From NCBI GenBank assembly GCA_965248285.1, contig CBDFJJ010000005.1:121447-185446 (forward strand): DNA of 64,000 bases, read 5' to 3'. The position numbers were made by a program, and so were the translations under genes. The notes beneath the pieces were generated by a model. The model was not told the origin of the DNA. It worked only from the letters and a program-made list of their open reading frames with translations, and searched no databases. Position 1 is the first letter of the stretch. Every line of letters starts with the position of its first letter. Source of the DNA: Gemmatimonadales bacterium. Lineage in GTDB: Bacteria > Gemmatimonadota > Gemmatimonadetes > Gemmatimonadales > GWC2-71-9. Below are positions 2,487 to 51,939 of this stretch, piece by piece.

Positions 2487-3692
2487 TCAGTGAGACAAAA
2501 AGTGCCCGAGCTTATCTCGCTTGGCGTTGAGATAGCCGCGGTTTTCGTCGGTCGGCAGCGGCTCAATCGGAACTCGCTCGACGATGCGCAATCCGTATGC
2601 CTCCAAACCCACCAGCTTCTTCGGGTTGTTGGTCAACACGCGGATGGAACTGAGCCCTTGATCCATGAGGATCTGTGCCCCGATACCGTAGTTGCGAAGA
2701 TCCGGGGCAAAACCCAATCGCTTGTTGGCTTCGACCGTGTCGTGTCCGCCGTCTTGCAGCTCGTACGCCTTGAGTTTGTTGAGCAATCCGATGCCGCGAC
2801 CCTCCTGGTCGAGATACACGATCACGCCGGCTCCGTGTTGGACGATCGCGCACATCGCACTCTGCAGCTGCCAACCGCAGTCACAGCGCGACGAACCAAA
2901 CACATCGCCGGTGAGGCACTTGGAGTGCATTCGCACCAGCACGTCCTCTCTGTTGGACACGTCGCCGTACACGAGTGCGATGTGTTCAGCGTCGTCAACA
3001 TCGTTCGAATACCCGACCACTCGAAACTCACCAAACTGTGTCGGCAACCTGGCGCTCGCGACGCGGTGGATCAAACGTTCGTGCTGCAAGCGGTACGCGA
3101 CGAGTTGGGCAACCGTGACAAAAGTGAGACCGTGCTCCGCCGAAAACTCCTCGAGTTGGGGACGGCGCATCATCTTGCCGTCGTCGTCGAGGATCTCACA
3201 GATCACCCCCGCGGGGTAGAGCCCCGCCAAGCGAGCGAGATCGACACTCGCCTCCGTTTGACCGACTCGCTGGAGAACACCGCCCGGACGGGCGCGCAAC
3301 GGAAAGACGTGCCCGGGACGTCGCAGATCTTCGGGAGCGGTTACCGGATCAATGGCAATCTGGATGGTCTTCCAACGATCCCACGCGGAAATGCCGGTCG
3401 TGACACCAAACCGCTTGGCACCGTCGATGCTCACCGTAAACGCCGTTTCGTTGGATTCGGTGTTTTCGTCCGCCATCTGGGGAAGTCCCAAGGCACTGCA
3501 CCGTGCCGGTGTCAACGTGAGGCAGATGAGGCCACGGCCGTACTTCGACATGAAGTTGATCCCGTCGTCGGTCATCCTCTCGGCGCCGCCTACGAGATCC
3601 CCCTCGTTCTCTCTATCTTCGTCGTCGGCCACAATAATCAGTCGGCCCTGACGAATATCGTCTATTGCCTGTTCAATGGTTCCAAACGCCAT
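2487..3692 (-). CDS. ribBA: bifunctional 3,4-dihydroxy-2-butanone-4-phosphate synthase / GTP cyclohydrolase II
   Basis: 401 aa. N-domain has DDEDRENEGDL. C-domain has SRCDCGWQL and EGRGIGLLNKLKAYELQ. Confidence 0.9.
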   Translation of the reverse strand: MAFGTIEQAIDDIRQGRLIIVADDEDRENEGDLVGGAERMTDDGINFMSKYGRGLICLTLTPARCSALGLPQMADENTESNETAFTVSIDGAKRFGVTTGISAWDRWKTIQIAIDPVTAPEDLRRPGHVFPLRARPGGVLQRVGQTEASVDLARLAGLYPAGVICEILDDDGKMMRRPQLEEFSAEHGLTFVTVAQLVAYRLQHERLIHRVASARLPTQFGEFRVVGYSNDVDDAEHIALVYGDVSNREDVLVRMHSKCLTGDVFGSSRCDCGWQLQSAMCAIVQHGAGVIVYLDQEGRGIGLLNKLKAYELQDGGHDTVEANKRLGFAPDLRNYGIGAQILMDQGLSSIRVLTNNPKKLVGLEAYGLRIVERVPIEPLPTDENRGYLNAKRDKLGHFLSH

Positions 3693-3702
3693 AACACCTC
3701 AC

Positions 3703-3758
3703 TCAATATCCAATATCCAACACTCAATATTCAATATTCAATATTGGATATTGGACTA
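3703..3758. repeat. heptanucleotide array 1 (YCAATAT x6 then TGGATAT-type x2), AT-rich
   Basis: Eight consecutive 7-mers: tcaatat ccaatat ccaacac tcaatat tcaatat tcaatat tggatat tggacta. An 11-bp inverted repeat pairs ccaatatccaa (3710-3720) with ttggatattgg (3745-3755). The array fills the ribE-ribBA intergenic gap and overlaps the ribE stop. Confidence 0.9.
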
Positions 3759-4355
3759 AGCATCTGTCGCCCGGGTATCGAGGAGCTGCTTCACGAACTT
3801 CCCGAGCATGTCTCCCTCCACGTGTATCCGATCGCCCGCCCCGAGAGATCCCAACGTCGTATGTTCGTACGTGAACGGAATCACCGAGACCTGCACGACG
3901 CCGGGATCGGGAATGGCATTCACCGTCATGCTCACCCCATCGAGTGCGATCGAACCGTGAAGTACGGTGATCGCTGCGATCGCGGCCGGTAGCTTCACGT
4001 CGATCAAGACGGCATCGTTGCGTGGGGTGACGCTGAGGATCTCGGCCACGCCATCGACGTGCCCTTGCACGAAGTGACCACCCAACCGCTCCCCGACCGC
4101 CAACGCCCGCTCGAGGTTCACCCGCGCACCAGCCTCCAACGCGTCGAGCGTCGTCCGGTCCCTAGTCGTAACGACAGCCTCGACGGAAAAGTTGCCGGGG
4201 CCCAGCTCCATGACCGTCAGGCAGGCACCGTTCAACGCGATGCTCTCGCCCAACGCAAGATCATCAAAGGAGGCCTCGATCGTCAGTTTCAGACGGTCGC
4301 CGTCGGTGCCAACGGCCACCACCGTCCCCTGTTCCTTTACGATCCCTGTAAACAT
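3756..4355 (-). CDS. ribE: riboflavin synthase (alpha chain)
   Basis: Start at ATG 4355 (MFTGIVKEQGTVV...). Two lumazine-binding repeats (GESIALNGACLTV / GSIALDGVSMTV). The upstream part of the 248-aa track ORF overlaps ribD and is judged non-coding. Confidence 0.85.
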   Translation of the reverse strand: MFTGIVKEQGTVVAVGTDGDRLKLTIEASFDDLALGESIALNGACLTVMELGPGNFSVEAVVTTRDRTTLDALEAGARVNLERALAVGERLGGHFVQGHVDGVAEILSVTPRNDAVLIDVKLPAAIAAITVLHGSIALDGVSMTVNAIPDPGVVQVSVIPFTYEHTTLGSLGAGDRIHVEGDMLGKFVKQLLDTRATDA

Positions 4356-5419
4356 AACTCTCGATCCACCACCAACAGCGTGTCTGGGCCCAAGGCTCGG
4401 TGCTCGACCACCGCCCAGGCCCGGGCGTCTTGTAAGGGGACGGCGCCGAGGGCGCCAAAGGCCGGAATGCCCTTCCCCAGCCAAATGGGAGCCTTGATCC
4501 AATAGAGCCGGTCGACCAGCCCCGCATCCATCAACGACCCAATCAGCGCTCCCCCACCTTCGATCAGGATCGATCGGATTCCTCGTTCTCCAAGGGCCAC
4601 CAGAGATCCGGCGAGGCCATCAGCCCCCAAAACCGTAACTTGAGTATGGGCAAGGGCTTGACTGAGTTCAACCTCCCGCGACGGCCTGGCAATGACAATA
4701 GTCGGAGCCGTTGCCGTGTCCAGGGCACGAAGATCCACCGAGATCTCGCCCTCGGTGGTGAATACTACCCTGGTCGGAACCACGCGCGGCTTCGTGGCGC
4801 CGCGGACGGTCAGCAACGGATCGTCCGCCACCACCGTTCCGCGGCCCACCCCGATGGCATCGAATCCGGCTCGCAGCCAGTGGACGTAGTCGCGGGCCTC
4901 GGGGCTCGAAATCCATTGCGAGCGGCCGGTTTCGTCGGCCAGAAACCCGTCGAGGGAGGTGGCCACCTTGACCGCCAGAAATGGGCGCCCTGGTCGGGAC
5001 GCGTCAAAGAGGAATGGGGCGTTGAGCGCCGCCCCCTCCTCGGCACCCACCCCGAGCACAACGTCGACGCCGGCACCGCGCAAGAAATCGAAGCCCCCTC
5101 CGGCGACGCTGGTGGGATCCGCAACGGCGGCAACCACCCGTGCCACGCCGGCAGCGGCCAGGGCTTCACAGCAAGGAGGAGTCTTCCCGTGGTGGGCGCA
5201 CGGCTCAAGGGTCACGACACACGTCGCGCCGACCGCGTCGTCACAGTCGTCGAGTGCGTTGGTTTCGGCGTGCGGCCCACCATACTCCGCGTGGAACCCC
5301 TCGCCAATGACATTGCCGTCACGAAGCAACACAGCGCCCACGAGTGGATTGGGCGCGACACGGCCCCACCCGCGCAAGGCGAGTTGGACGGCACGGCGCA
5401 TGGCCTCGAGCTCGGTCAC
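4337..5419 (-). CDS. ribD: bifunctional riboflavin biosynthesis deaminase/reductase
   Basis: Deaminase zinc motif HAE...TLEPCAHHGKTPPC, then a reductase domain (LLTVRG...SILIEGGGAL). Start is GTG 5419 or ATG 5401. The longer track ORF runs through heptad array 2 and is rejected. Confidence 0.85.
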   Translation of the reverse strand: MTELEAMRRAVQLALRGWGRVAPNPLVGAVLLRDGNVIGEGFHAEYGGPHAETNALDDCDDAVGATCVVTLEPCAHHGKTPPCCEALAAAGVARVVAAVADPTSVAGGGFDFLRGAGVDVVLGVGAEEGAALNAPFLFDASRPGRPFLAVKVATSLDGFLADETGRSQWISSPEARDYVHWLRAGFDAIGVGRGTVVADDPLLTVRGATKPRVVPTRVVFTTEGEISVDLRALDTATAPTIVIARPSREVELSQALAHTQVTVLGADGLAGSLVALGERGIRSILIEGGGALIGSLMDAGLVDRLYWIKAPIWLGKGIPAFGALGAVPLQDARAWAVVEHRALGPDTLLVVDRELCLQGS

Positions 5420-5436: not shown

Positions 5437-5520
5437 GAATATCCAATATCCAATATTGAATATCCAATATCGATGAATGAATTTTGGATATTGGATATTG
5501 GATATTGGATATTGGATATT
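5437..5520. repeat. heptanucleotide array 2: 12 in-phase heptads forming a long dyad
   Basis: gaatatc caatatc caatatt gaatatc caatatc | gatgaat gaatttt | ggatatt x5. The left arm (5437-5471) is nearly the reverse complement of the right arm (5486-5520). Lies between the purM stop and the ribD start. Confidence 0.95.
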
Positions 5521-5543: not shown

Positions 5544-6563
5544 CTATTGAAGCCGCACTCCTTGGCCCTCGACGACCGCACCAATGACCCACGTCGGAAC
5601 GTCGGCCATGCGTGCCGCCGTTTGCACCTCATCCACGGCGTCGGAAGGCACGACCGCGACCAGACCGATCCCCATGTTGAATACGTCAAACATCTCGTTC
5701 CGCTCTACGTTACCTCTCTCTTGCAGGAAGGTGAACAGCGGCGGAACCTGCCAGGTCGACATGTCGATAGCCGCACCGCACCCGTCAGGCAGGGAACGAG
5801 AAAGATTTCCGGGCAATCCTCCCCCGGTGATATGCGCCAGCGCATGCACGCGCGGCAGAACGGAGGAGACTGCAGCGTAGTAGCTCCGATGAACGGTCAG
5901 CAGGGCGTCGCCCACCGACGTTCCCAATTCCGGGATTTCGCTGCCGACGTCGAGACTCAATTGGTCGAAGACGATGCGACGCGCCAACGAATACCCGTTG
6001 GTGTGCAAGCCGGTCGACGCGTACCCCACCAAGCTATCGCCTTGCCGCACCCGGTCGCCGTGCAGCGCATCCCCTTCGGACACGACGCCAATAATGGTGC
6101 CCGCCAAATCGTAATGGCCGGTCTGGTACAGGTCCGGCATTTCGGCGACCTCACCACCCGCCAGCGTGATATCGTGATTCCGGCATCCTCGCGCGACCCC
6201 CTCGACGATCGCGGCAACTCTGTCCGGATCGACCGAGGCTACCGCAACGTAGTCGAGGAATGCGAGGGGTCGCGCGGCATGAACGAGGATATCGTTGACA
6301 CAGTGATTGACGAGATCCTCTCCAATGGTGTCGTGCCGCTCCGCGCGGGCCGCCACCAACACTTTTGTGCCCACGCTGTCGGTGCTTGTCACGAGGATGG
6401 GGTCGCGGACGTCTTGCGGGACGCGGATCATCCCGCCGAAGCCACCCACGATGCCTCGGGACAACTCCGTGCGGGTTGAGGCGACCAGCTCGGCAATCTT
6501 GGCCGTGGCCCGCCGACCGGCATCGAGATCGACGCCGGCCTCGCGATATCTGTCAGCAGGCAT
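5544..6563 (-). CDS. purM: phosphoribosylformylglycinamidine cyclo-ligase (AIR synthetase)
   Basis: Start at ATG 6563 (MPADRYREAGVDLDAG). GGFGGM and TDSVGTK motifs. The track's TTG extension lies inside heptad array 3. Confidence 0.9.
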   Translation of the reverse strand: MPADRYREAGVDLDAGRRATAKIAELVASTRTELSRGIVGGFGGMIRVPQDVRDPILVTSTDSVGTKVLVAARAERHDTIGEDLVNHCVNDILVHAARPLAFLDYVAVASVDPDRVAAIVEGVARGCRNHDITLAGGEVAEMPDLYQTGHYDLAGTIIGVVSEGDALHGDRVRQGDSLVGYASTGLHTNGYSLARRIVFDQLSLDVGSEIPELGTSVGDALLTVHRSYYAAVSSVLPRVHALAHITGGGLPGNLSRSLPDGCGAAIDMSTWQVPPLFTFLQERGNVERNEMFDVFNMGIGLVAVVPSDAVDEVQTAARMADVPTWVIGAVVEGQGVRLQ

Positions 6564-6573
6564 AACGAAAAAC

Positions 6574-6637
6574 GAATATCCAATATCCAATATTGAATAT
6601 TGAATATTGAATTGCTGAATATTGAATAATGAACATC
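6574..6637. repeat. heptanucleotide array 3 (GAATATC/CAATATT type, 9 units, decaying)
   Basis: gaatatc caatatc caatatt gaatatt gaatatt gaattgc tgaatat tgaataa tgaacat(c). Directly upstream of purM. The last unit is the IS256-like target-site duplication. Confidence 0.9.
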
Positions 6638-8049
6638 GAGTTATTTTCGAAAGTTGTGGATTGGAGGAATGAGAAAGGCGGCGTATCCTTTCGTGTAGTC
6701 AGTTGAAACGTACACGAGATCCGGTTGTGACGACCGGAGAAAGGACACGCCACCGATGTTGAGGATAATAGAGAATGCGTCTGAGAGCAAAGGGAACGGA
6801 CTGTTCGCAGACCTGGACGAGCTTGCCAGAGAGGGAGCTCGGCGGATGCTGGTGAGTGCGTTGGACGCGGAAGTGACCGAGTATGTCGAGCGATATCGGA
6901 TTGAGCGAGACGGAGAGGGCCGCGCCCTGGTGGTGCGCAATGGCAAAGCCCGTCCCCGCAAGGTGACGCTGGGTGCTGGTACGGTCACGGTGACCGCGCC
7001 ACGGGTGCATGACCGTCGTATGCGGGCGCAGTTCACGAGCAAGATTTTGCCTCCCTATATGCGGCGGTCGCCGAAGGTGGCGGAGGTCTTGCCGGTGTTG
7101 TATCTGCGCGGTCTGTCGACGGGAGATTTTCGCGAGGCGTTGCCGATCTTGTTGGGTGAGGACGCATCAGGCTTGTCCCCGACGACGATCACGCGATTGA
7201 CGGCGGCGTGGGAGGGGGAATACCAGGCGTTTCGCCAGCGTGATCTGCGTGATCGGGAGTATGTGTACGTCTGGGTCGACGGGATCCACTTCAACATTCG
7301 CCTCGAGGCCGACCGGCTGTGTACGCTGGTGATGCTGGGCGCCCGGGCGGATGGGACGAAAGAGCTGATCGCGGTGGAGGACGGCTATCGGGAGAGCACG
7401 GAGAGCTGGTTGGCGGTGTTGCGCGATCTGAAGCGTCGGGGGATGCGGGCCCCGGTGCTGGCGATTGGGGATGGCGCGTTGGGGTTCTGGGCAGCGGTGC
7501 GGGAGGTGTGGCCGGCGACGCGGCAGCAGCGCGACTGGGTGCACCGGATGGCCAACGTGTTGGACAAGCTTCCGAAACGTTTGCAGCCGGCGGCGAAGCG
7601 GGTGTTGCGCGAGATGATGTATGCGGAGTCGCGTGCGGAGGCCGAGGCGCTGGTCGAGCGTTTCGCCACCGCGTATGCGGCCAAGTATCCCAAGGCGGTC
7701 GCCTCGCTCACGCGGGACCAGGAGCACCTGTACAGCCATTTTGATTTTCCGGCCGAGCATTGGAAACATATCCGTTCGACGAACGTGATCGAGTCTGCCT
7801 TCGCGACGGTCCGGTTACGACAGCGCGTGACCAAGGGAGCGGGCTCGCGGAGCAAAGGGCTGACGATGGCGTTCAAGCTGTTGGAGATGGCGCAGCAACG
7901 TTGGCGGAAACTCAACGCTCCAGAACTTCTCCCCCTGGTGTTGGCAGGAGAACAATTCAAAGATGGTATGCAGGAAACTGACAAAGAGAACACGGATCGG
8001 AAGGTCGCCGCTTGATCACTCACCGATCCACAACATTTGACAATACCTC
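6638..8049 (+). mobile_element. IS256-family insertion sequence (copy type A)
   Basis: Imperfect terminal inverted repeats: gagttattttcgaaagttgtggattgg versus the reverse complement of ccgatccacaacatttgacaatacctc. Flanked by an 8-bp direct repeat TGAACATC (6630-6637 and 8050-8057). Single transposase ORF. Confidence 0.85.
6756..8015 (+). CDS. IS256-family (mutator-type) transposase
   Basis: 419 aa with the typical layout: ...YVWVDGIHFNIRL...LAIGDGALGFW...HFDFPAEHWKHIRSTNVIES. Confidence 0.9.
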   Translation: MLRIIENASESKGNGLFADLDELAREGARRMLVSALDAEVTEYVERYRIERDGEGRALVVRNGKARPRKVTLGAGTVTVTAPRVHDRRMRAQFTSKILPPYMRRSPKVAEVLPVLYLRGLSTGDFREALPILLGEDASGLSPTTITRLTAAWEGEYQAFRQRDLRDREYVYVWVDGIHFNIRLEADRLCTLVMLGARADGTKELIAVEDGYRESTESWLAVLRDLKRRGMRAPVLAIGDGALGFWAAVREVWPATRQQRDWVHRMANVLDKLPKRLQPAAKRVLREMMYAESRAEAEALVERFATAYAAKYPKAVASLTRDQEHLYSHFDFPAEHWKHIRSTNVIESAFATVRLRQRVTKGAGSRSKGLTMAFKLLEMAQQRWRKLNAPELLPLVLAGEQFKDGMQETDKENTDRKVAA

Positions 8050-8091
8050 TGAACATCCGCATTAATCTGCTTTTTTCTGTGCTATCCGTGG

Positions 8092-9006
8092 CTAGAAGCC
8101 GTCCGTGTCGAAATGCACGAGATCGGTAAACGATCGTGCGCGCGCTGTGATCTCTGCGACACCGATTTCCTGAAATCGTTGCACGGAGAATCGCTCGACG
8201 GCAAACGATCCGGTAGTCGCACCGAACACCATGGCTCGGCGGAGATTCGCCCGCGAGAGGTCTCCCGAACGCGCCAGGTGCCCCATGAAGCCTCCCGCGA
8301 ACGCATCGCCGGCGCCTGTCGGATCGTAAATCTCCTCCAACGGAAATGCCGGTACGTAAAAGATACTCTTATCATCGACGAGGACGGCACCGTACTCGCC
8401 CTGTTTGATGATGACCATTCGCGGCCCGCGTTTCAGAATCCAGCGCGCCGCCCGGTAGATGTTCCAGTCACCCGACAATTGTCGCGCCTCGGCGTCGTTG
8501 ACCATGAGCACGTCGATGCGCTTCAACAACTGCATGAGCGTATCGGGTTGGCCGTCAATCCAGAAGTTCATCGTGTCGCATGCAACCAGATCTGGTTGTC
8601 GAACCTGATCCAGCACGCTCAGTTGGAGTTGCGGATCGATATTGCCGAGGAATACGAGTTTGGCATCGCGGTATGCGTCAGGGAGTTTGGGATCGAAATC
8701 TGAGAATACCCCTAATTGCGTGTCGATGGTCTCACGATTCTGGAGGTCGAAGGAGTACTTACCCTTCCACCGAAAGCTCTGACCGGCCGCCCGCTCGACC
8801 CCAGCGATGTCGATGCCTCGTTCGGCCATCCGCTCGAGTTCTTCGTTCGGGAAGTCATCGCCAATCACACCAACGGCCAGCACGGGATGAAAGAACGCGG
8901 CGGCATAGCCGAAAAAAGTGGCCGAGCCACCCAACGCATCGGCGGTGGACCCGAATGGCGTTTCTACCGAATCGAGTGCGATGCTACCGACGACGACTAA
9001 TCCCAT
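8092..9006 (-). CDS. PfkB-family carbohydrate kinase
   Basis: 304 aa. C-terminal DPTGAGDAFAGGF motif of ribokinase/PfkB kinases. Confidence 0.8.
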   Translation of the reverse strand: MGLVVVGSIALDSVETPFGSTADALGGSATFFGYAAAFFHPVLAVGVIGDDFPNEELERMAERGIDIAGVERAAGQSFRWKGKYSFDLQNRETIDTQLGVFSDFDPKLPDAYRDAKLVFLGNIDPQLQLSVLDQVRQPDLVACDTMNFWIDGQPDTLMQLLKRIDVLMVNDAEARQLSGDWNIYRAARWILKRGPRMVIIKQGEYGAVLVDDKSIFYVPAFPLEEIYDPTGAGDAFAGGFMGHLARSGDLSRANLRRAMVFGATTGSFAVERFSVQRFQEIGVAEITARARSFTDLVHFDTDGF

Positions 9007-9351: not shown

Positions 9352-9420
9352 GATGCACTCTACCGACTTTGGGAATGTCGTGGAAACAACCGGGCATCTT
9401 AGCGGCCACCCGTGGCCTGG

Positions 9421-9492
9421 TCAAGCAGGGTAGTCTGGTCAAGCAGGGTGGTCTGGTCAAGCAGGGTGGTCTGGTTAAGCAGGACGGTATAC
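9421..9492. repeat. 18-bp tandem repeat (3 full units plus a diverged unit containing the mutase stop)
   Basis: tcaagcagggtRgtctgg at 9421-9438, 9439-9456 and 9457-9474. The unit at 9475-9492 (ttaagcaggacggtatac) is the 3' end of the mutase gene. Confidence 0.9.
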
Positions 9493-24266: not shown

Positions 24267-24278
24267 AGACGAGGGATT

Positions 24279-24377
24279 CAGATTTCAGATTGCAGATTGC
24301 AGATTGCAGATCTCAGATTGCCCTTCCACCCCCCAGTGCACCGTAGTGCATCGCCCAATCTGCCATCTGAAATCTAG
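24279..24377. repeat. heptad dyad: (CAGATTG)x6 left arm, 35-nt loop, start of (CAATCTG)n right arm
   Basis: cagattt cagattg x3 cagatct cagattg (24279-24320), a loop, then caatctg ccatctg aaatcta (24356-24376). The array is cut by IS5-like copy 1 at CTAG. Confidence 0.9.
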
Positions 24378-25690
24378 CAGGTTGCGGAAAAATTGATGGT
24401 GAGCCGCGTTTGTCCGGGTAACACGACGGTGTACCAGCGTGCGGTCCCCTATTACCGCCCCCGCGGTGCGGTCGGCGTGACGAATGCGGCCCACACTGCC
24501 CCATCAGGGGCTGCCTCCGGCCAGGGTCAGGGTGCGTATCCGCATCAGATTGTAGACCGCGGCCGTGAACGTAAACACCCACCCGACCCGCGGGGTCCCG
24601 CGATGTCGGAGTTTGCGTAACAACCCAATCGTCTTGCCCCACCCGTAGATCTCTTCCACTTTTTTGCGCTGCCGTTGACTGATCGCATAGCTGGGATGGC
24701 GCGTCGTCCGGCCATCCACCGCGCTCCGCAACCGCGTGCGGTGCACGTTCGGCGTGACGTGGGGCGTCCAGCCCAACGCCCGCAGCGTGTCGACAAACCC
24801 GCACCGATCATAACCCTTGTCCGCCCCCAACGTCCGACGCCGGGCCGTCGGCGGTAAGCTCCCCACCATCGCCAGCGCACTCGCACACTCCGCCTCGTAG
24901 CCGGGCTGCGTCACGTCGGTCGCCACCACGAGCCCGTGCCGATTATCCATCAACACACTCGCCAAGTACGCCAATTGCGCGCCTTGCCCCCCACTCTTCC
25001 GCGTCAACCGCGCCTCCGGGTCCGTCCGCGACGCATGCGTCGCATTCGTCCGTTTCTCCTGGCGAAACGTCACGCTCGGATTCCCCGGATCATCGTCCGT
25101 TGGCGGGCGGGTGCCGGCCTTCGGCTGAAAACTCTTCTGACTCGCCCACGCGTCCAGCAAGGTCCCGTCGACGGTGAAATGCTCATTCGACAACAACGCC
25201 CGCCGCTCCGCCTCCTGTAACACTTCGGCCAGAAACGCATCCGCGATGCCCCCCTCGACCAGCCGCGTCCGATTCTTCGTAAAGACCGTCGGCACCCACA
25301 CCGCGTCGTCCAGATTCAACCCCACAAACCATCGGTACAGGATGTTGTAATCGAGCTGCTCCATCAGCTGCCGCTCGCTCCGGATCGTATACACCACCTG
25401 CAGCAATAACGCGCGTAACAAATGTTCCGGGGGAATCGACGGCCGGCCCCGCCGCGCGTACAGCCGGTCCAACTGCGGCGAGAGCCGGGCTAACACCGGG
25501 TCCACCAGCGCCCGCAGGGCGCGCAACGGATGGTCGGAGGGCACCCGATCCTCCGCACTGATATAGCTGAACAGCGCCGACTGATTCGTCTTGTTCCCGC
25601 GCATCGTGGCACTCCCATCGAGGTCCCTCTACGATAAGAACTTCCGGCTCGCGATGCTATCGTCCATTACCCGACTTTTTCCGCAACCTG
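24378..25690 (-). mobile_element. IS5-family insertion sequence, copy 1 (1313 bp)
   Basis: 15-bp perfect terminal inverted repeats CAGGTTGCGGAAAAA. CTAG on both flanks (24374-24377 and 25691-25694). Confidence 0.9.
24504..25604 (-). CDS. IS5-family DDE transposase
   Basis: 366 aa. N-terminal FSYISAEDRVPSDHPLR...GRPSIPPEHLLRALLLQVVYTIRSERQLMEQLDYNILYRWFVGL is typical of IS5-group transposases. Confidence 0.9.
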   Translation of the reverse strand: MRGNKTNQSALFSYISAEDRVPSDHPLRALRALVDPVLARLSPQLDRLYARRGRPSIPPEHLLRALLLQVVYTIRSERQLMEQLDYNILYRWFVGLNLDDAVWVPTVFTKNRTRLVEGGIADAFLAEVLQEAERRALLSNEHFTVDGTLLDAWASQKSFQPKAGTRPPTDDDPGNPSVTFRQEKRTNATHASRTDPEARLTRKSGGQGAQLAYLASVLMDNRHGLVVATDVTQPGYEAECASALAMVGSLPPTARRRTLGADKGYDRCGFVDTLRALGWTPHVTPNVHRTRLRSAVDGRTTRHPSYAISQRQRKKVEEIYGWGKTIGLLRKLRHRGTPRVGWVFTFTAAVYNLMRIRTLTLAGGSP

Positions 25691-25712
25691 CTAGAATCTG
25701 AAATCTGAAATT
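25691..25712. repeat. distal part of the CAATCTG heptad arm (after the IS)
   Basis: ctag aatctga aatctga aatt continues the heptad phase interrupted at 24377. Confidence 0.8.
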
Positions 25713-28968: not shown

Positions 28969-30126
28969 TCAGAAGTAGATCCGCCCCCTAAGAAAACCTC
29001 CGTTCCGTTGGGAACCGAACTCCGTCCCGCTGCTCCCGACGTACACTGCCCCGTTGAAGATCAAATCGACGTTTTGTGCCAGCGCATAGGTGACGGCCGG
29101 TATGAGGACGGCGCTCTGATCGTTCGGGTTGCCGATGGCGGAGGCGCCCAGGCTCCAGAGTTGGCCGAACGGGCGACTCACGAATCCGTACATTAGGAGC
29201 TTCCCCAACGAAGGGCGACCACCGAAGAGCCTGCCCAGCCACTGGTCGGTGGAGTAGGGGGCATTCGACTCACCGCGGCCGTTGTAGAAGGTCTCGAGAA
29301 GCATCAGCGTGCCATCGGCCAAACTGTAGTTGGCTCCAAACGTCGCCTCGACCCATCTCTCCCCCGAATGGTCCGACCATGCGGCCTCTGCCCACACGCC
29401 GAGCCCAAACAGTTCGCCGGTGATGTCGCCGCCAACCGTCCTACGGCGCGACAGTGGAGCGTTTGGTTGCCCGATGCCTGCTATGGCCGAAGGTTCGTAA
29501 AGCTCGGCGACGAGTGCGGACACATCGAAGCCGACAACATGGTGTCGAGCCCGAAAAACTTTTGCGCTCGTTTGGAATCCTCCCTGGAAAACCAGTGCGG
29601 CCGTGATATCACTGAGAGCTCCAACGGCGACTTTGGTCGCAATCGCCTCGACCCCCTCGCGATCGTAACTGGGCTGTAGAGCGTCCTTTGGCCGGAACAG
29701 CTCGGTGGGATTGAAGACGAACCCCGCTCCCCACGTGAGGTACTGTTTCCCGGCAACGATTTCAAACGGACCGGGTTGCACCGCAATGAAGACGTGATTC
29801 AGGAAGTTTTGGTCTTCGATCGTAATGGCGAAGGTGTCGGCGATCTGACTCAGCTCCTGGGGTAACACGTCTCGAAGCATGACGCGGGTGTCACCCCGAA
29901 AGAGCTGGTAGATGATCGAGGCCGATGCCCGGGCCCCCCGCCCCCCGCGAGCGTCGATGTCGACCCGGAGTCGGTCGTAGTCGAGGGTGGTCCAATCGCC
30001 GTTCGAGTAACTGGTGCTGAACTGGTGTTCAAAGTAGCCGGTGAAGCGGGCGTCCTGTCCTCGCGCCGTTGTCGTTCCACCTACCAGGAAAACCACGACG
30101 GCGCTGCCAAGCCGCCATCGAATCAA
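28969..30126 (-). CDS. putative outer-membrane beta-barrel protein
   Basis: Signal peptide MIRWRLGSAVVVFLVGGTTTARGQ. C-terminal ...GGFLRGRIYF ends in an aromatic residue. Coupled to the LolA-like gene. Confidence 0.55.
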   Translation of the reverse strand: MIRWRLGSAVVVFLVGGTTTARGQDARFTGYFEHQFSTSYSNGDWTTLDYDRLRVDIDARGGRGARASASIIYQLFRGDTRVMLRDVLPQELSQIADTFAITIEDQNFLNHVFIAVQPGPFEIVAGKQYLTWGAGFVFNPTELFRPKDALQPSYDREGVEAIATKVAVGALSDITAALVFQGGFQTSAKVFRARHHVVGFDVSALVAELYEPSAIAGIGQPNAPLSRRRTVGGDITGELFGLGVWAEAAWSDHSGERWVEATFGANYSLADGTLMLLETFYNGRGESNAPYSTDQWLGRLFGGRPSLGKLLMYGFVSRPFGQLWSLGASAIGNPNDQSAVLIPAVTYALAQNVDLIFNGAVYVGSSGTEFGSQRNGGFLRGRIYF

Positions 30127-30896
30127 GTACCACTCTCCAAATGGCGAAGGGTGAACACACGCTCGGGGACGGTAACGGCAAGCTCGAGTTCCAAGAACTG
30201 CATCTTGGTGCTCGTGTCGCTCTGGAGCGCGTTATTGAGTTCGATGGAGAAGGGGTACCATCGCTCTCCCAACTGGCGTACGTCACCCATAACCGCCGTC
30301 TTCAACAGCTTGCCGCTGCGGGCATAGCGCTCTTCCTTGAGCGGCACCCACCGTTCCATATCGACCCACATCCGTCGACTCTGGTACGCCAGATCATTTC
30401 GCTTCGCGGTGAGGTGCAATACGAGCGTCGGCCGGCCATCGAGGGTTTCTTCGCCTTCCAACGTGGCATCGTAATCGTCCACCATGCTCGGGTTCTCGCT
30501 GGCATCGCCGTATGAGAAATCACTGCCCATCAAACCCTGCCGCAGCATGTGGCCCTGGATGCGCACGCTTTTCCCCACGCGGGGAAGGAAGATCCACATC
30601 GCATCGCCGCGCCGAAGAAAGCGGCTTCCTGCGTCCCTCGCCGGCGAGATGAATTCCAAGAAGGACTGATCGGTGCCCTGCGCCCACGATTCGAACACGA
30701 GCTTGCGCACGTCGCCATCGCGGTACTGGATGGACATCTCGGCCTTCGTCCGCGCCGTGCGGATCGTCATGTTGGCATCGATGCGCTCGAGGATCTCCGC
30801 AGGCGTTATCTGAGCACCAGCAGCGGACGGGACCACGACGGACGCGGCGAGGGCAAGGCCCGACGCCCAATGCAATGCACTTCTCACGTTGTGCAC
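30123..30896 (-). CDS. outer-membrane lipoprotein-sorting (LolA-like) protein
   Basis: 257 aa with a signal peptide. The family is commonly encoded beside FtsX-type ABC permeases. GTG start at 30896. Confidence 0.6.
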   Translation of the reverse strand: MHNVRSALHWASGLALAASVVVPSAAGAQITPAEILERIDANMTIRTARTKAEMSIQYRDGDVRKLVFESWAQGTDQSFLEFISPARDAGSRFLRRGDAMWIFLPRVGKSVRIQGHMLRQGLMGSDFSYGDASENPSMVDDYDATLEGEETLDGRPTLVLHLTAKRNDLAYQSRRMWVDMERWVPLKEERYARSGKLLKTAVMGDVRQLGERWYPFSIELNNALQSDTSTKMQFLELELAVTVPERVFTLRHLESGT

Positions 30897-30913: not shown

Positions 30914-30948
30914 CGTCTCACGTCTCACGTCTCACGTCTTACGTCTCA
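30914..30948. repeat. heptad array (CGTCTCA)x5
   Basis: cgtctca cgtctca cgtctca cgtctta cgtctca. Lies immediately upstream of the LolA-like gene and 9 nt from the IS481-like end. Confidence 0.9.
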
Positions 30949-30957
30949 CGGGACAAG

Positions 30958-32315
30958 TGTCAGAGGATGCAGGTCACTTGGGACGTGCTTCTTTGACAGG
31001 TAGTGCGTACGCACGTGACATATTGAGAATTGGCGATCATTCCTGAAAGCCATGACGAGGAAACCGATAGCGAACGGTCTGCAACAGGGGCTGCGACCCT
31101 GGTTCGCGCCGCCGCAGCGCGTAGAAGCGGATGCGGTTGGCGTCGAAATCGACCTCGGCGCGCACGAGACGATGGGACCAGCGCGGATCGACCCGCCAGG
31201 TATGCCCCAGCAGCTCGGCCGTTCCCTGCTCGCTGATGCGCCGCAGGAACACCAAGCGGCCGCGCGGGCGGGTCTGCAAGTCCAACGCCCACTCTTCGGG
31301 AAACGTCCGTCGTGGCGGGGCGGCCTCCAGGCGCGGTGCCGCACGGCGGCGGACTGCTGCCACGTAGCGATCCGAACGCTCCTGCAGGGCCGCGCGGGTG
31401 GGATGATGGAAACGGGCCCACACCTTGGCCTGCCACCGACCGTTGTAGCTTTCTACCGCCGCCTGGAAGCCGGTCTCGCGTGGCGGCGCGAACACGGGGA
31501 CGATCCCCAAACTCAAACACAGGCGCGTGACACGGCCGACGGTGTCAGGGAACTGATGCGCGCCCTGGAACCGGGTGTCGTTGTCGAACTGTGCATAGGC
31601 TGGCAGCCCGAACTGCCGCCAGTGCGTTACCAGGGCCTCGACGATAGTGGTGGCGCGGACGGGTGGACCGGGCCACGACGCGACCAATCCGCCGTGCAGC
31701 GAGATGCCGTTGAGCACTTCGACCTCGGTGCCACCCTTGATCACCAACCCTTCGACGATGTCAAAGCTGTCCAGCTCCGCACAGCCCGCGGCCACCTCAG
31801 GCAGATACCAGCCTCGGGGCGGTGGGGGGCGACGGATCCGCCGGCGACCGTCCAGCGCCCCGTGCCGGGCCAGGATGCGGCCGATCGTCCGCACCGCGGG
31901 GACGCTGCGATAGTGACGGTCGCGCATCTCGCGGTAGATGGCAGCGGCCCCGTACTCCCCCAGGTCGCTCGTGTCACGCAGCTCTCGCCACAGCGTCAGC
32001 ACGACATCTTCTACGGCCGCTTCCGTGCGATGAATCGTGTGCGCGAGGTGAGACCGGTCAGACCAATCGACTCGATCCAGCCGCTGGCCGCCGACGCGCT
32101 GCACCCACCGTTGCACGGTCTGGAGGCTCACGTGAAACCGGCGCGCCACCGCACGCAGCGAGGCACCCCGCCGAACCGCGGCAACCATCTTTCGACGTCG
32201 CTCCTCGGTCCGGCCTTTTTACGCACCTTGACCCCCGAACTAGTGTTTCGTTCAAATACTATAAACCACACTCCTGACCTGGATCCTGTGACACTCCGAC
32301 CTGCATCCTGTGACA
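30958..32315 (-). mobile_element. IS481-family-like insertion sequence
   Basis: Left end is TGTCAGAGGATGCAGGTC (30958-). The reverse complement of 32298-32315 is TGTCACAGGATGCAGGTC, with 1 mismatch. Single rve-type transposase ORF. Right boundary is ambiguous because the terminal 18-mer occurs three times. No target duplication recognised. Confidence 0.7.
31037..32188 (-). CDS. rve/integrase-core DDE transposase (IS481-like)
   Basis: 383 aa with an N-terminal HTH (ASLRAVARRFHVSLQTVQRWV). Candidate DDE residues lie in SFDIVEG, AQFDNDTRF and ESYNGRW. Confidence 0.8.
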   Translation of the reverse strand: MVAAVRRGASLRAVARRFHVSLQTVQRWVQRVGGQRLDRVDWSDRSHLAHTIHRTEAAVEDVVLTLWRELRDTSDLGEYGAAAIYREMRDRHYRSVPAVRTIGRILARHGALDGRRRIRRPPPPRGWYLPEVAAGCAELDSFDIVEGLVIKGGTEVEVLNGISLHGGLVASWPGPPVRATTIVEALVTHWRQFGLPAYAQFDNDTRFQGAHQFPDTVGRVTRLCLSLGIVPVFAPPRETGFQAAVESYNGRWQAKVWARFHHPTRAALQERSDRYVAAVRRRAAPRLEAAPPRRTFPEEWALDLQTRPRGRLVFLRRISEQGTAELLGHTWRVDPRWSHRLVRAEVDFDANRIRFYALRRREPGSQPLLQTVRYRFPRHGFQE

Positions 32316-32340
32316 CCTAGGTGACCTGGATCCTGTGGCA
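32276..32340. repeat. three direct copies of the IS481-like terminal 18-mer
   Basis: gacctggatcctgtgaca (32276-32293), gacctgcatcctgtgaca (32298-32315) and gacctggatcctgtggca (32323-32340). Spacing is 22 and 25 bp. Confidence 0.85.
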
Positions 32341-32345
32341 CTTAT

Positions 32346-32366
32346 CCTCTCACGTCTCACACTCAC
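32346..32366. repeat. remnant heptads (CCTCTCA CGTCTCA CACTCAC)
   Basis: Same heptamer family and orientation as 30914-30948, on the other side of the IS. Overlaps the permease stop codon. Confidence 0.6.
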
Positions 32367-51219: not shown

Positions 51220-51939
51220 ATGACCCTACACTTAAAAAGTGGGGCACACGACCACCGCGACGAAGGTATGTGTGCGATGGAGGCGGCGGCGTTTCTTGCA
51301 GGGGAACCCCACAGCGACCACCCAGAATGTGTCTCGCCCGTTATCGGTGCATTTGTACGTCAATGGAATGATTGTCTGAACTCCCAGGACCGCAATCGGT
51401 TGTTGCGACCCGTGTTGTATAGGGTGCTGCACACGCGAACAAACGCGGCCGACGAAGAAACGAGGGCATGGTTGGCCACTGACTGGCTTGTCCGCGTACA
51501 AGCGCCCGCATGGCTAGAACTCGCCGGGCTGACCAAACAGGCACGGCGGCTACGTTCCCTCCCGGCGTTAACCTCAAGTGAAATAGCGGTTGCGGTACAG
51601 TCAGTCTTAGATGGTTGCCGCCGTGACGCGGCTGCGGCGAGGGCTGCGGCGAGGGCTGCGGCGTGGGATGCGGCGTGGGATGCGGCGTGGGGTGCGGCGA
51701 GGGCTGCGGCGTGGGGTGCGGCGAGGGCGGCGGCGAGGGCGGCGGCGAGGGCGGCGGTGAGGGATGCGGCGAGGGGTGCGGCGGGGGATGCGGCGTGGGC
51801 TGCGCTACACCCAACGGTCTCCCACCTACAACACAGCGCGTTGTGCTTGCTTGACCGAATGATAGACGTGGGCACAGTGCGCGGCGTCTCGGCGGAGGAA
51901 GCCCAACGCGGCGAACTGGTTGGCGTGCAACACAAGTGA
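51220..51939 (+). CDS. hypothetical protein with Cys/His-containing N-domain and AA[RW]x tetrapeptide repeat region
   Basis: Good RBS (AAGGAGAAATAAAAG ATG). N-domain GMCAMEAAAFLAGEPHSDHPECVSPV, followed by 14 tetrapeptide repeats. Confidence 0.65.
   Translation: MTLHLKSGAHDHRDEGMCAMEAAAFLAGEPHSDHPECVSPVIGAFVRQWNDCLNSQDRNRLLRPVLYRVLHTRTNAADEETRAWLATDWLVRVQAPAWLELAGLTKQARRLRSLPALTSSEIAVAVQSVLDGCRRDAAAARAAARAAAWDAAWDAAWGAARAAAWGAARAAARAAARAAVRDAARGAAGDAAWAALHPTVSHLQHSALCLLDRMIDVGTVRGVSAEEAQRGELVGVQHK
51634..51801 (+). repeat. 12-nt tandem repeat x14 (gcggcgNgggNN), in frame
   Basis: Units read directly from 51634. They encode AARA AARA AAWD AAWD AAWG AARA AAWG AARA AARA AARA AVRD AARG AAGD AAWA. 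Confidence 0.95.

What the first reader, a model, noticed from the sequence alone, without database searches (positions are those of the whole stretch)
5437..5520. Twelve in-phase heptads forming a ~35-bp near-perfect dyad between purM and ribD
The sequence reads gaatatc caatatc caatatt gaatatc caatatc / gatgaat gaatttt / ggatatt x5. The left arm is nearly the reverse complement of the right arm, and the 7-nt register is maintained through the loop. In the purM-ribD transcript this would give a very long A/U-rich hairpin. In DNA it is a potential cruciform or slipped-strand structure. A structure built from repeats can expand or contract in 7-nt steps without losing its dyad symmetry, which is an unusual design.
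Basis: seen in the sequence. Interest (0 to 1): 0.65.

Follow-up and report, generated by a model that had tools for sequence, protein, structure and literature searches.

The report
Hairpin repeat built from heptad arrays
The 84-base element between purM and ribD is real: it is one copy of a small family of hairpin-forming intergenic repeats in a Gemmatimonadota lineage, whose two arms are runs of 7-base units that grow and shrink one unit at a time. This is a new twist on known bacterial 7-base repeats, and its function has not been tested.

Summary
Window 5437-5520 is twelve in-register heptads: 5 x NAATATY, a 14-nt centre, and 5 x GGATATT. On the transcribed (minus) strand they fold into a 33-pair A/U-rich hairpin (z about -9).

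It is not a one-off. The same unit family fills the two neighbouring gaps of the same operon (3700-3755 and 6574-6633). It sits at the same positions in eight related Gemmatimonadota assemblies. It also occurs, with the same termini (GAATATC...GATATTC) and a shared purine-rich centre (SAAGAAKGAAT), at unrelated loci in other Gemmatimonadota MAGs.

Relatives at 70-78% PurM identity have only a 2-9 nt purM-ribD spacer, so the element is a recent insertion. Copies carry 9-12 units, every indel is a multiple of 7, and the arms keep one register. Two strains 98.8% identical differ by exactly one heptad. The arms nevertheless diverge 3-4 times more slowly than purM synonymous sites.

Best reading: a dispersed, REPIN-like hairpin element with simple-sequence-repeat arms, probably acting as an intercistronic RNA hairpin (RNase III or stability site). 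That function is inferred, not shown.

Heptanucleotide repeats themselves are known. AATATCC arrays occur in many phyla, only 2-4 times more often than same-composition controls.

The parts
5437..5520 (-). The heptad dyad: 12 in-register 7-nt units, transcribed within the pfkB-purM-ribD-ribE-ribBA gene string. It forms a 33-pair A/U-rich hairpin.
5486..5520 (-). 5' arm in the mRNA: (AAUAUCC)x5, which reads GGATATT x5 on the + strand.
   Evidence: (100% matches)
5472..5485 (-). Centre or loop: two degenerate heptads (GATGAAT GAATTTT on the + strand). It matches the family centre SAAGAAKGAATWTT shared with copies at other loci.
5437..5471 (-). 3' arm in the mRNA: CGAUAUU GGAUAUU CAAUAUU GGAUAUU GGAUAUU (ending C). 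It ends 17 nt before the ribD GTG start.
5544..6563 (-). purM (AIR synthase), the upstream cistron. Its TAG stop lies 23 nt before the dyad.
4337..5419 (-). ribD, the downstream cistron, with a GTG start at 5419-5417 as in the orthologues. In this genome and in L210 the AGGAG Shine-Dalgarno seen in other copies is replaced by CAGCAAAGCG.
3700..3755 (-). Second dyad of the same unit family, in the ribE-ribBA gap. It forms a hairpin (z -7.1) ending just before the GAGG Shine-Dalgarno of ribBA. Relative L004 has only a single GGATATT here and L001 has none.
6574..6633 (-). One-sided array of the same family, (UCAAUAU)n(UGGAUAU)2, ending 11 nt before the purM ATG. It forms a weaker self-hairpin (z -3.4).
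6638..8049 (+). IS256-family element inserted at the upstream edge of the purM array, with 8-bp target duplications GATGTTCA at 6630-6637 and 8050-8057. Relative L209 shows the empty site.
8092..9006 (-). pfkB-family kinase, the gene upstream of purM. In relatives the pfkB-purM gap carries a full dyad of the same family.

Best explanation
Window 5437-5520 is one copy of a lineage-restricted family of hairpin-forming intergenic repeats in Gemmatimonadota. Each copy has the plan (T)GAATATC-(NAATATC)n - purine-rich centre SAAGAAKGAAT - (GGATATT/CGATATT)n - GATATTC(A). The two arms are tandem heptanucleotide arrays in opposite orientation but in one continuous 7-nt register.

Shown:
- The element was inserted into what was a 2-9 nt purM-ribD spacer in a sub-clade.
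- It also occupies neighbouring gaps of the same operon and unrelated loci.
- It changes length only in whole heptads, as expected from replication slippage.
- Its arms diverge more slowly than synonymous sites.

Inferred:
- The unit core AATAT/ATATT is nearly self-complementary. A plain (CAATATT)n array would therefore fold back on itself, and U-to-C changes in one half matched by A-to-G changes in the other would turn A-U pairs into G-C pairs and give the present dyad.
- The element is transcribed inside the polycistronic pfkB-purM-ribD-ribE-ribBA message and forms a 33-pair duplex. This most probably acts as an intercistronic RNA element: a double-strand-specific RNase III substrate and/or an exonuclease barrier. 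It would uncouple the stability and translation of purM and ribD, which were translationally coupled in the ancestor.
- Stem length, and hence effect size, would be adjustable in 7-nt steps.
For: Anatomy and significance.

Orthologous copies: the purM-ribD and pfkB-purM gaps of L001-L004, L059 and L209-L211 carry the element, and all fold to long hairpins.

Absence in more distant relatives: L005, L006 and L009 have TAGAGAGCAGTG-type spacers and no period-7 arrays in 84 kb.

Length changes: copies have 9-12 units and all indels are multiples of 7. L001 and L002 are 98.76% identical over 3.5 kb, and their only indel is one heptad.

Register: the phase difference between arms is 0 in all purM-operon dyads and in the independent locus L113, whereas dyads in other phyla show scattered phases.

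Constraint: the array differs at 4/84 positions against 38/188 four-fold sites of purM (p = 9e-4), and at 11/84 against 70/190 (p = 5e-5). The 12-unit form is kept across five genomes. One compensatory C-G to G-C change is seen, and 93% of cells are paired.

Family character: the same termini and centre motif occur between a TonB-receptor gene and recO (L113), and between convergent homocysteine methyltransferase and dctM genes (L012). The centre motif is found only in Gemmatimonadota loci among 1.6 Mb searched.

Functional precedent: in Haemophilus influenzae, hmw (ATCTTTC)n repeats form one arm of a long 5'-UTR hairpin that RNase III cleaves. The hairpin is needed both for expression control and for repeat-number change (PMC12721329).
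Against: - No transcript, cleavage or expression data exist for this organism, so every functional step is inferred.
- Covariation is not statistically significant (106 of 500 shuffles reach the observed score).
- Arms versus adjacent non-arm non-coding columns is only marginal (5/70 against 8/39 variable columns, p = 0.06).
- Slow divergence could come from concerted evolution within arrays, or from lower mutability of A/T positions, rather than from selection.
- Some copies are lopsided or short (L211, L001), and the pfkB-purM gap varies from 2 to about 15 units among close relatives. Any function therefore tolerates large changes.
- No RNase III gene lies in the window, so its presence in the genome is assumed.
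- The means of dispersal is unknown. There are no target-site duplications, and no RAYT-like gene was found in the DNA held.
Confidence: 0.5

Rival explanations
1. Neutral or selfish simple-sequence repeat. Heptad arrays arise and spread by replication slippage in any tolerant intergenic gap. The dyad form follows from the nearly palindromic unit, and the element has no function for the cell.
For: - Period-7 arrays of several unrelated units occur in the window (8 arrays, against 0 for periods 8-11). They are common in many phyla.
- AATATCC x3 is only 2-4 times more frequent than same-composition permutations in viral contigs: 17 stretches against 9, 5 and 9.
- The element is absent in sister lineages that keep the same operon.
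- The pfkB-purM gap is hypervariable.
- An array appears to have been born from a single GGATATT seed in the ribE-ribBA gap.
Against: - The arms diverge 3-4 times more slowly than four-fold sites, and the 12-unit form is stable across five genomes.
- An A/T-rich tract persists in a 62% G+C genome.
- All Gemmatimonadota copies seen are dyads, against about 13% of AATATCC arrays elsewhere.
- The asymmetric centre is shared between unlinked loci.
Confidence: 0.25
2. REP/REPIN- or MITE-like mobile element, moved in trans by a transposase such as a RAYT/Y1 enzyme. On this view the hairpin is the transposition substrate and any RNA effect is incidental.
For: - Conserved inverted termini TGAATATCC...GGATATTCA and a conserved centre occur at unlinked loci in different genomes, in either orientation relative to the genes.
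- The element was inserted, together with non-heptad flanks, into a 2-9 nt spacer.
- The total size of 60-100 nt resembles REPINs (PMC3116915).
- There is no target-site duplication, as with HUH/Y1 systems.
Against: - There is no GTAG or CGTC tag at the ends.
- Internal unit number varies freely, and all length change is by heptads.
- No RAYT-like gene was found in the window or in any heptad-bearing locus held. This covers only a small part of any genome.
- Only three copies occur in 64 kb, and all three are clustered in one operon.
Confidence: 0.12
3. Platform for a single-strand RNA-binding protein (ribosomal protein S1, cold-shock proteins, CsrA-like) just upstream of start codons, acting as a translational enhancer or regulator. 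This was proposed for TAACTGA repeats in Beggiatoaceae.
For: - The 3' half-arrays end 3-22 nt before the start codons of purM, ribD and ribBA.
- The precedent and the 7-nt footprint of cold-shock proteins are discussed in PMC4679880.
- purM lacks a visible Shine-Dalgarno sequence in all copies.
Against: - The predicted duplex would hide the heptads from single-strand binders.
- Copies also lie between convergent genes (L012) and in either orientation.
Confidence: 0.06
4. DNA-level element: a cruciform or slipped structure, an operator array for a regulator of purine and riboflavin genes, or a DnaA-box-like titration site (ATATCCAAT resembles the recalled E. coli R3 box TTATCCAAA).
For: - Three consecutive gaps of one operon carry the units.
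- The single-stranded DNA fold is strong.
- The rib operon here has no FMN riboswitch or any other Rfam match.
Against: - The same dyads flank unrelated genes (recO, dctM).
- A 7-bp spacing puts successive sites on different faces of B-DNA.
- No dnaA or dnaN lies nearby.
- Rapid turnover of unit number argues against a precise operator.
- The DnaA-box resemblance is recalled from memory and was not tested.
Confidence: 0.04
5. Transcription terminator or attenuator between purM and ribD.
For: - It is a long stable hairpin directly after a stop codon.
- At L012 and L113 the dyad is clamped by G/C-rich complementary flanks (GGAGGGG...CCCCTCC). At L012 it lies between convergent genes.
Against: - There is no U-tract, the stem is A/U-rich, and the terminator scan does not call it.
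- The downstream rib genes have no evident promoter of their own.
- Synteny and tight spacing indicate one operon.
Confidence: 0.03

Closest known systems
Heptanucleotide simple-sequence repeats of bacteria: LSSRs of Mrazek et al. 2007 (as cited in PMC4679880 and PMC4692102), cyanobacterial STRR heptamers, GGGAATC in Xanthomonas and Nostoc
   Same: Tandem 7-nt units, an excess of period 7 over other periods, intergenic location close to start or stop codons, variable copy number, and patchy phylogenetic distribution.
   Different: Those arrays are described as one-sided direct arrays. Here two opposed half-arrays in one register form a long hairpin with a conserved centre and fixed termini. 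The unit and the phylum (Gemmatimonadota) are not in the papers found.
TAACTGA direct repeats of marine Beggiatoaceae, Cyanobacteria and Bacteroidetes (PMC4679880)
   Same: Heptamer arrays placed a few nucleotides upstream of start codons, including housekeeping operons. The same unit is shared across distant phyla with no known transfer mechanism.
   Different: Only one inverted set was seen among 170 in that genome. Here, every Gemmatimonadota copy seen is inverted. The unit is different, and the predicted duplex is the opposite of the proposed single-strand binding site.
Haemophilus influenzae hmw 5'-UTR (ATCTTTC)n hairpin cleaved by RNase III (PMC12721329)
   Same: A transcribed heptameric repeat forms the arm of a long RNA hairpin, and repeat number varies between strains. 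RNase III processing and the hairpin control expression. This is the best functional model.
   Different: There, only the left arm is repeat and the right arm is a G-rich non-repeat. That element lies in a 5' UTR of a phase-variable adhesin. Here both arms are repeats, the site is intercistronic, and the genes are housekeeping biosynthetic genes.
REP / REPIN elements (PMC3116915; GTAG/CGTC-tagged REPs, PMC3733652)
   Same: Short, dispersed, extragenic hairpin-forming repeats of about 60-100 nt. They are often found between genes of an operon or between convergent genes, lack target duplications, and attract IS insertions.
   Different: There is no GTAG or CGTC tag. The arms are tandem repeats of variable number rather than a fixed imperfect palindrome. 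No RAYT gene was seen, and the copy number is unknown.
Intercistronic RNase III sites and stabilising hairpins of polycistronic mRNAs (phage T7 early region; REP in malE-malF); from general knowledge
   Same: A long duplex between cistrons that can set the relative stability and translation of neighbouring genes.
   Different: Those are unique sequences, not built of repeats, and are not length-variable.

Membership tests
Heptanucleotide simple-sequence repeat (LSSR/STRR type) | Head-to-tail copies of a 7-nt unit, three or more in a row | tested here: met
   TRF period 7 at 5438-5471 (4.9 copies) and 5484-5520 (5.3 copies, 100% matches). The sequence itself.
Heptanucleotide simple-sequence repeat (LSSR/STRR type) | Genome shows an excess of period-7 arrays over neighbouring periods, with several different units | tested here: met
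   The window has 8 period-7 arrays and 0 for periods 8-11. Units include AATATCC, CAGATTG and CGTCTCA.
Heptanucleotide simple-sequence repeat (LSSR/STRR type) | Copy number changes in whole units between strains | tested here: met
   9-12 units among nine orthologous copies, with all indels multiples of 7. There is a single 7-nt indel between strains 98.76% identical.
REP / REPIN | Conserved GTAG or CGTC tetranucleotide at one end of the palindrome | tested here: not met
   The ends are TGAATATCC...GGATATTCA in all copies, with no GTAG or CGTC tag.
REP / REPIN | Many dispersed extragenic copies with a conserved sequence forming a hairpin | tested here: inconclusive
   Copies with shared termini and centre occur at four or more distinct genomic positions in several MAGs. 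Only three occur in this 64-kb window, all in one operon. No whole genome was available.
REP / REPIN | Cognate RAYT (Y1/HUH transposase) gene in the genome, flanked by the repeats | not testable with these tools
   tblastn with an E. coli RAYT sequence recalled from memory found nothing in the window or in heptad-bearing loci. This covers only a small fraction of any genome.
Intrinsic (Rho-independent) terminator | G+C-rich stem followed by a run of U | tested here: not met
   The stem is A/U-rich and is followed by CAGCAAAGCG. It is not called by the scan.
RNase III substrate (functional class) | About 20 bp or more of near-perfect double-stranded RNA | tested here: met
   Predicted helices of 19 + 13 pairs, or 20 + 13 with flanks. 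This is prediction only.
RNase III substrate (functional class) | Cleavage by RNase III in vivo or in vitro, and presence of rnc in the genome | not testable with these tools
   There is no rnc in the 64-kb window and no transcript data.
hmw-type repeat/hairpin phase-variation switch | Controls a contingency (surface or host-interaction) gene | tested here: not met
   The flanking genes are purM, ribD, ribE, ribBA and pfkB.
TAACTGA-type start-codon-proximal heptamer repeats | Direct repeats in forward orientation ending within a few nucleotides of a start codon | tested here: inconclusive
   The proximal half-arrays end 3-22 nt before start codons. The arrays are inverted pairs, the unit differs, and L012 lies between convergent genes.
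FMN riboswitch (the usual leader of ribD operons) | Match to Rfam RFN model upstream of rib genes | tested here: not met
   There are no Rfam matches at gathering thresholds anywhere in the window.

The most novel reading that the evidence does not exclude
Gemmatimonadota carry a previously undescribed class of dispersed 'repeat-armed' hairpin elements. The stem length of each is heritably adjustable in 7-nt steps. The elements act as evolvable intercistronic rheostats, processed by RNase III, that reset the expression ratios of neighbouring housekeeping genes. They also serve as preferred landing pads for insertion sequences. Their in-register, quasi-palindromic architecture would link the unexplained bacterial excess of heptamer repeats to fold-back structures rather than to polymerase footprint alone.
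Probability: 0.15. Interest if true: 0.7.

Novelty: new variant of a known kind. Interest (0 to 1): 0.5.

Why it matters
Heptamer repeats are the most over-represented long simple-sequence repeats in bacteria, yet their cause and role remain unexplained (PMC4679880, PMC4692102).

This case gives a natural series of 9-12 units, with balanced and lopsided arms and with presence or absence in otherwise syntenic operons. In that series, repeat dynamics, hairpin formation and gene-expression consequences could be tied together.

It also shows that a repeat-built hairpin can be inherited stably for long periods, with arms evolving more slowly than synonymous sites, while still changing by unit steps. 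It further hints that such arrays attract insertion sequences.

If the RNA-processing role holds, it would extend the recently shown hmw/RNase III principle from a pathogen's adhesin switch to housekeeping operons of an environmental phylum.

Tried and rejected
- **Exact-protein look-up of the window's PurM.** Not on record.
- **Rfam on the whole window.** No matches, so no FMN riboswitch or any known RNA family.
- **Sigma-70 promoter and terminator scan.** Neither is called in or next to the arrays.
- **Covariation test on five 12-unit copies.** One compensatory pair, not significant.
- **Idea that the cross-phylum occurrence of AATATCC x3 means a shared mobile element.** Weakened by control scans, in which same-composition permutations are only 2-4 times rarer in viral contigs. 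Most non-Gemmatimonadota arrays are one-sided (123 of 142), and they lack the family centre.
- **DnaA-box or origin idea.** No dnaA or dnaN in the window, and the resemblance is only recalled from memory.
- **rnc and RAYT searches in the DNA held.** Nothing found. This says nothing about the whole genome.
- **L059 (GTDB representative, about 90% identical to the window).** Its ribE-ribBA and pfkB-purM gaps are runs of N, so those two gaps could not be compared.
- **Coding reading of the array.** ORFs through it encode ISNIQYP-type repeats. This was rejected here because the array lies between well-defined cistrons and unit changes are not multiples of 3.

Full report
**1. The observation.**
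The sequence at 5437-5520 is exactly as described: five units NAATATY, two degenerate central units, and five perfect GGATATT, 84 nt in all, which is 12 x 7. Tandem Repeats Finder reports both half-arrays. A two-unit probe with up to two mismatches hits 15 times in the window against 0.05 expected. All hits lie in three adjacent intergenic gaps: 3700-3755, 5437-5520 and 6574-6633.

All flanking genes are on the minus strand. In order they are pfkB (8092-9006), purM (5544-6563), ribD (4337-5419), ribE (3756-4364) and ribBA (2487-3692). The transcribed strand of the 84 nt folds into 19 + 13 pairs with a 15-nt loop, at -39.3 kcal/mol and z = -9.6. The opposite strand and single-stranded DNA fold equally well.

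**2. Organism and orthologous loci.**
PurM homologues place the window in Gemmatimonadota. I fetched the same operon from eight close assemblies (PurM 88-94% identical, or about 90% nucleotide identity for L059) and from three more distant relatives (70-78%).

All close relatives carry a heptad dyad in the purM-ribD gap. Most also carry one in the pfkB-purM gap. The distant relatives keep the same gene order but have a purM-ribD spacer of only 2-9 nt (TAGAGAGCAGTG) and no period-7 array in 84 kb. The element is therefore a recent insertion into a formerly coupled stop-start junction.

In most copies an AGGAG Shine-Dalgarno lies directly after the last heptad. The window and L210 have CAGCAAAGCG there instead.

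**3. How it evolves.**
- The nine purM-ribD copies have 12, 12, 12, 12, 12, 11, 10, 9 and 9 units. Every length difference is a multiple of 7.
- L001 and L002 are 98.76% identical over 3.5 kb. Their only indel is one heptad in this array.
- The two arms are always in one continuous register, with phase difference 0 in all purM-operon dyads and in the independent locus L113. Dyads of the same unit in other phyla show scattered phases.
- In register, the left and right units differ by only two transitions (GAATATC against GGATATT). The core AATATT is self-complementary.
- The simplest origin (inferred) is a quasi-palindromic direct array such as (CAATATT)n, units of which still occur in several copies. 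Its two halves then acquired matching U-to-C and A-to-G changes that turn A-U pairs into G-C pairs.
- All nine copies fold to long hairpins, with z from -2.7 to -7.9. The window's copy is the most perfect.

**4. Constraint.**
Among the five 12-unit copies, the array differs at 4-5 of 84 positions where purM four-fold sites differ by about 20%. It differs at 9-12 of 84 where four-fold sites differ by about 30-37% (Fisher p = 9e-4 and 5e-5 for two comparisons).

Arms vary in 5 of 70 columns, against 8 of 39 for the loop plus the adjacent non-repeat spacer (p = 0.06). On the alignment, 93% of cells are paired, 25 of 33 pairs never vary, and there is one compensatory C-G to G-C change. Covariation is not significant.

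This dyad is therefore not a freely drifting microsatellite. The slow change could still reflect homogenisation within arrays or lower mutability of A/T positions rather than selection.

By contrast, the pfkB-purM gap ranges from two heptads (L209) to about fifteen (L210) among close relatives. The ribE-ribBA dyad of the window corresponds to a single GGATATT in L004 and to nothing in L001.

**5. A family, not a single site.**
Most of these arrays are one-sided (123 of 142). Many sit beside arrays of unrelated heptads. Period 7 is about 10-100 times more frequent than periods 8-11 in those loci.

Control scans in viral contigs show AATATCC x3 only 2-4 times more often than three same-composition permutations (17 against 9, 5 and 9). 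The cross-phylum occurrence is therefore mostly generic behaviour of heptad repeats.

Within Gemmatimonadota the picture is sharper. Copies at unrelated loci share three features with the purM-operon copies:
- The order is AATATCC-first.
- The termini are TGAATATCC...GGATATTCA.
- The asymmetric centre is SAAGAAKGAATWTT.

These unrelated loci lie between a TonB-dependent receptor gene and recO in L113, and between convergent homocysteine methyltransferase and dctM genes in L012. That centre was found only in Gemmatimonadota loci among 1.6 Mb held. The element occurs in either orientation relative to transcription.

This is the signature of a dispersed repeat family, REPIN-like in behaviour. It lacks the GTAG/CGTC tag of REPs, has no target duplications, and no RAYT-like gene was found in the DNA available.

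**6. What it most likely does.**
The gene string is conserved and tightly spaced. No promoter-like or terminator-like site is called at the arrays, and there is no riboswitch or other Rfam match. The dyad is therefore most likely transcribed inside a polycistronic message, where a 33-pair duplex would form. Such a duplex is a textbook substrate for RNase III and a barrier for 3' exonucleases (general knowledge).

The closest experimental precedent is the H. influenzae hmw leader. There, heptameric repeats form one arm of a long hairpin that RNase III cleaves, and both the hairpin and RNase III are required for expression control and for repeat-number change (PMC12721329).

I therefore favour an intercistronic RNA processing or stability element that uncouples purM from ribD, with strength set by the number of paired heptads. 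This step is inferred.

The rivals are:
- a functionless slippage product;
- a mobile REP/MITE-like element whose RNA effects are incidental;
- a single-strand protein-binding platform, as proposed for TAACTGA repeats (PMC4679880);
- a DNA-level cruciform or operator;
- a terminator.

The evidence for and against each is listed in the rival explanations.

**7. Comparison and novelty.**
Heptanucleotide repeats are known. Examples are the LSSR excess at period 7, cyanobacterial STRRs, GGGAATC in Xanthomonas and Nostoc, TAACTGA in Beggiatoaceae, and ATCTTTC in Haemophilus. None of the papers found describes two opposed heptad arrays in one register forming a conserved intercistronic hairpin, nor anything of this kind in Gemmatimonadota.

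It meets the defining features of a heptanucleotide simple-sequence repeat. It behaves like a REPIN but fails the tag test. I file it as a new variant of a known kind, of moderate interest. It is real, reproducible across independent assemblies, evolutionarily informative and testable, but without functional data.

Noticed in passing
window 6638-8049; 24373-25695; about 30951-32347: All three insertion sequences recognised in the window belong to different families (IS256, IS5, IS481-like). Each sits in or at the edge of a heptad array: the purM array, a (CAGATTG)n dyad, and a (CGTCTCA)n array. Heptad arrays may be preferred or tolerated IS landing sites, as REPs are. I did not check whether other IS copies lie away from arrays.
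   Followed up: partly
window 24275-24375 and 25695-25711: A second dyad is built from a different heptad: (CAGATTK)6, then about 35 nt, then (CAATCTG/AAATCTG)n. It lies between an amidohydrolase-type ORF (stop at 24266) and pcm (start about 25760). Its right arm is split by the IS5 element. The fold z is only -1.3 with the IS end included.
   Followed up: partly
window 30914-30950 and 32348-32360: A (CGTCTCA)5+2 direct array lies about 14 nt upstream of the Shine-Dalgarno of a LolA-like gene (30123-30896, minus strand). It is split by the IS481-like element, whose right end carries three roughly 22-nt tandem repeats (32275-32342).
   Followed up: partly
window 2487-5419 (rib genes): The ribD-ribE-ribBA genes have no FMN riboswitch, and no Rfam family matches anywhere in the 64 kb. 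How riboflavin genes are regulated in this lineage is open.
   Followed up: partly
L013, L022, L033, L047, L074, L119 and others (Candidatus Haliotispira prima chromosome): (AATATCC)4-7 lies inside the 5' coding region of a multi-copy gene family spaced about 1.3 kb apart. It sits between the ATG (with a GGAGG Shine-Dalgarno) and a lipoprotein signal peptide and lipobox. Copy number differs between paralogues and sets the reading frame. This looks like a large heptad-driven phase-variable lipoprotein family.
   Followed up: partly
window 9412-9483: Four tandem copies of an 18-nt unit (CCTGCTTGACCAGACCAC on the minus strand) start at the stop codon of the methylmalonyl-CoA-mutase-like gene. They fill the gap before the zinc-ribbon gene, and the gap is about 50 nt longer than in relatives L003 and L004.
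   Followed up: no
window 51630-51804: There are 14.6 tandem copies of a 12-nt G+C-rich unit (GGCTGCGGCGAG). This is probably a coding repeat, but it was not examined.
   Followed up: no
L059 730-830 and 3700-3800; L003 7180-7280: Runs of N, flanked by duplicated sequence, sit exactly at or next to heptad arrays in other assemblies. The arrays may break or confuse short-read assembly, so unit counts from MAGs deserve caution.
   Followed up: no
L012 3300-3390; L113 4250-4370; L080 1010-1110: At these loci the heptad dyad is clamped by complementary G/C-rich flanks, for example GGAGGGG...CCCCTCC. The repeat hairpin therefore sits on top of a short G-C stem. The purM-ribD copy lacks such a clamp.
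   Followed up: partly
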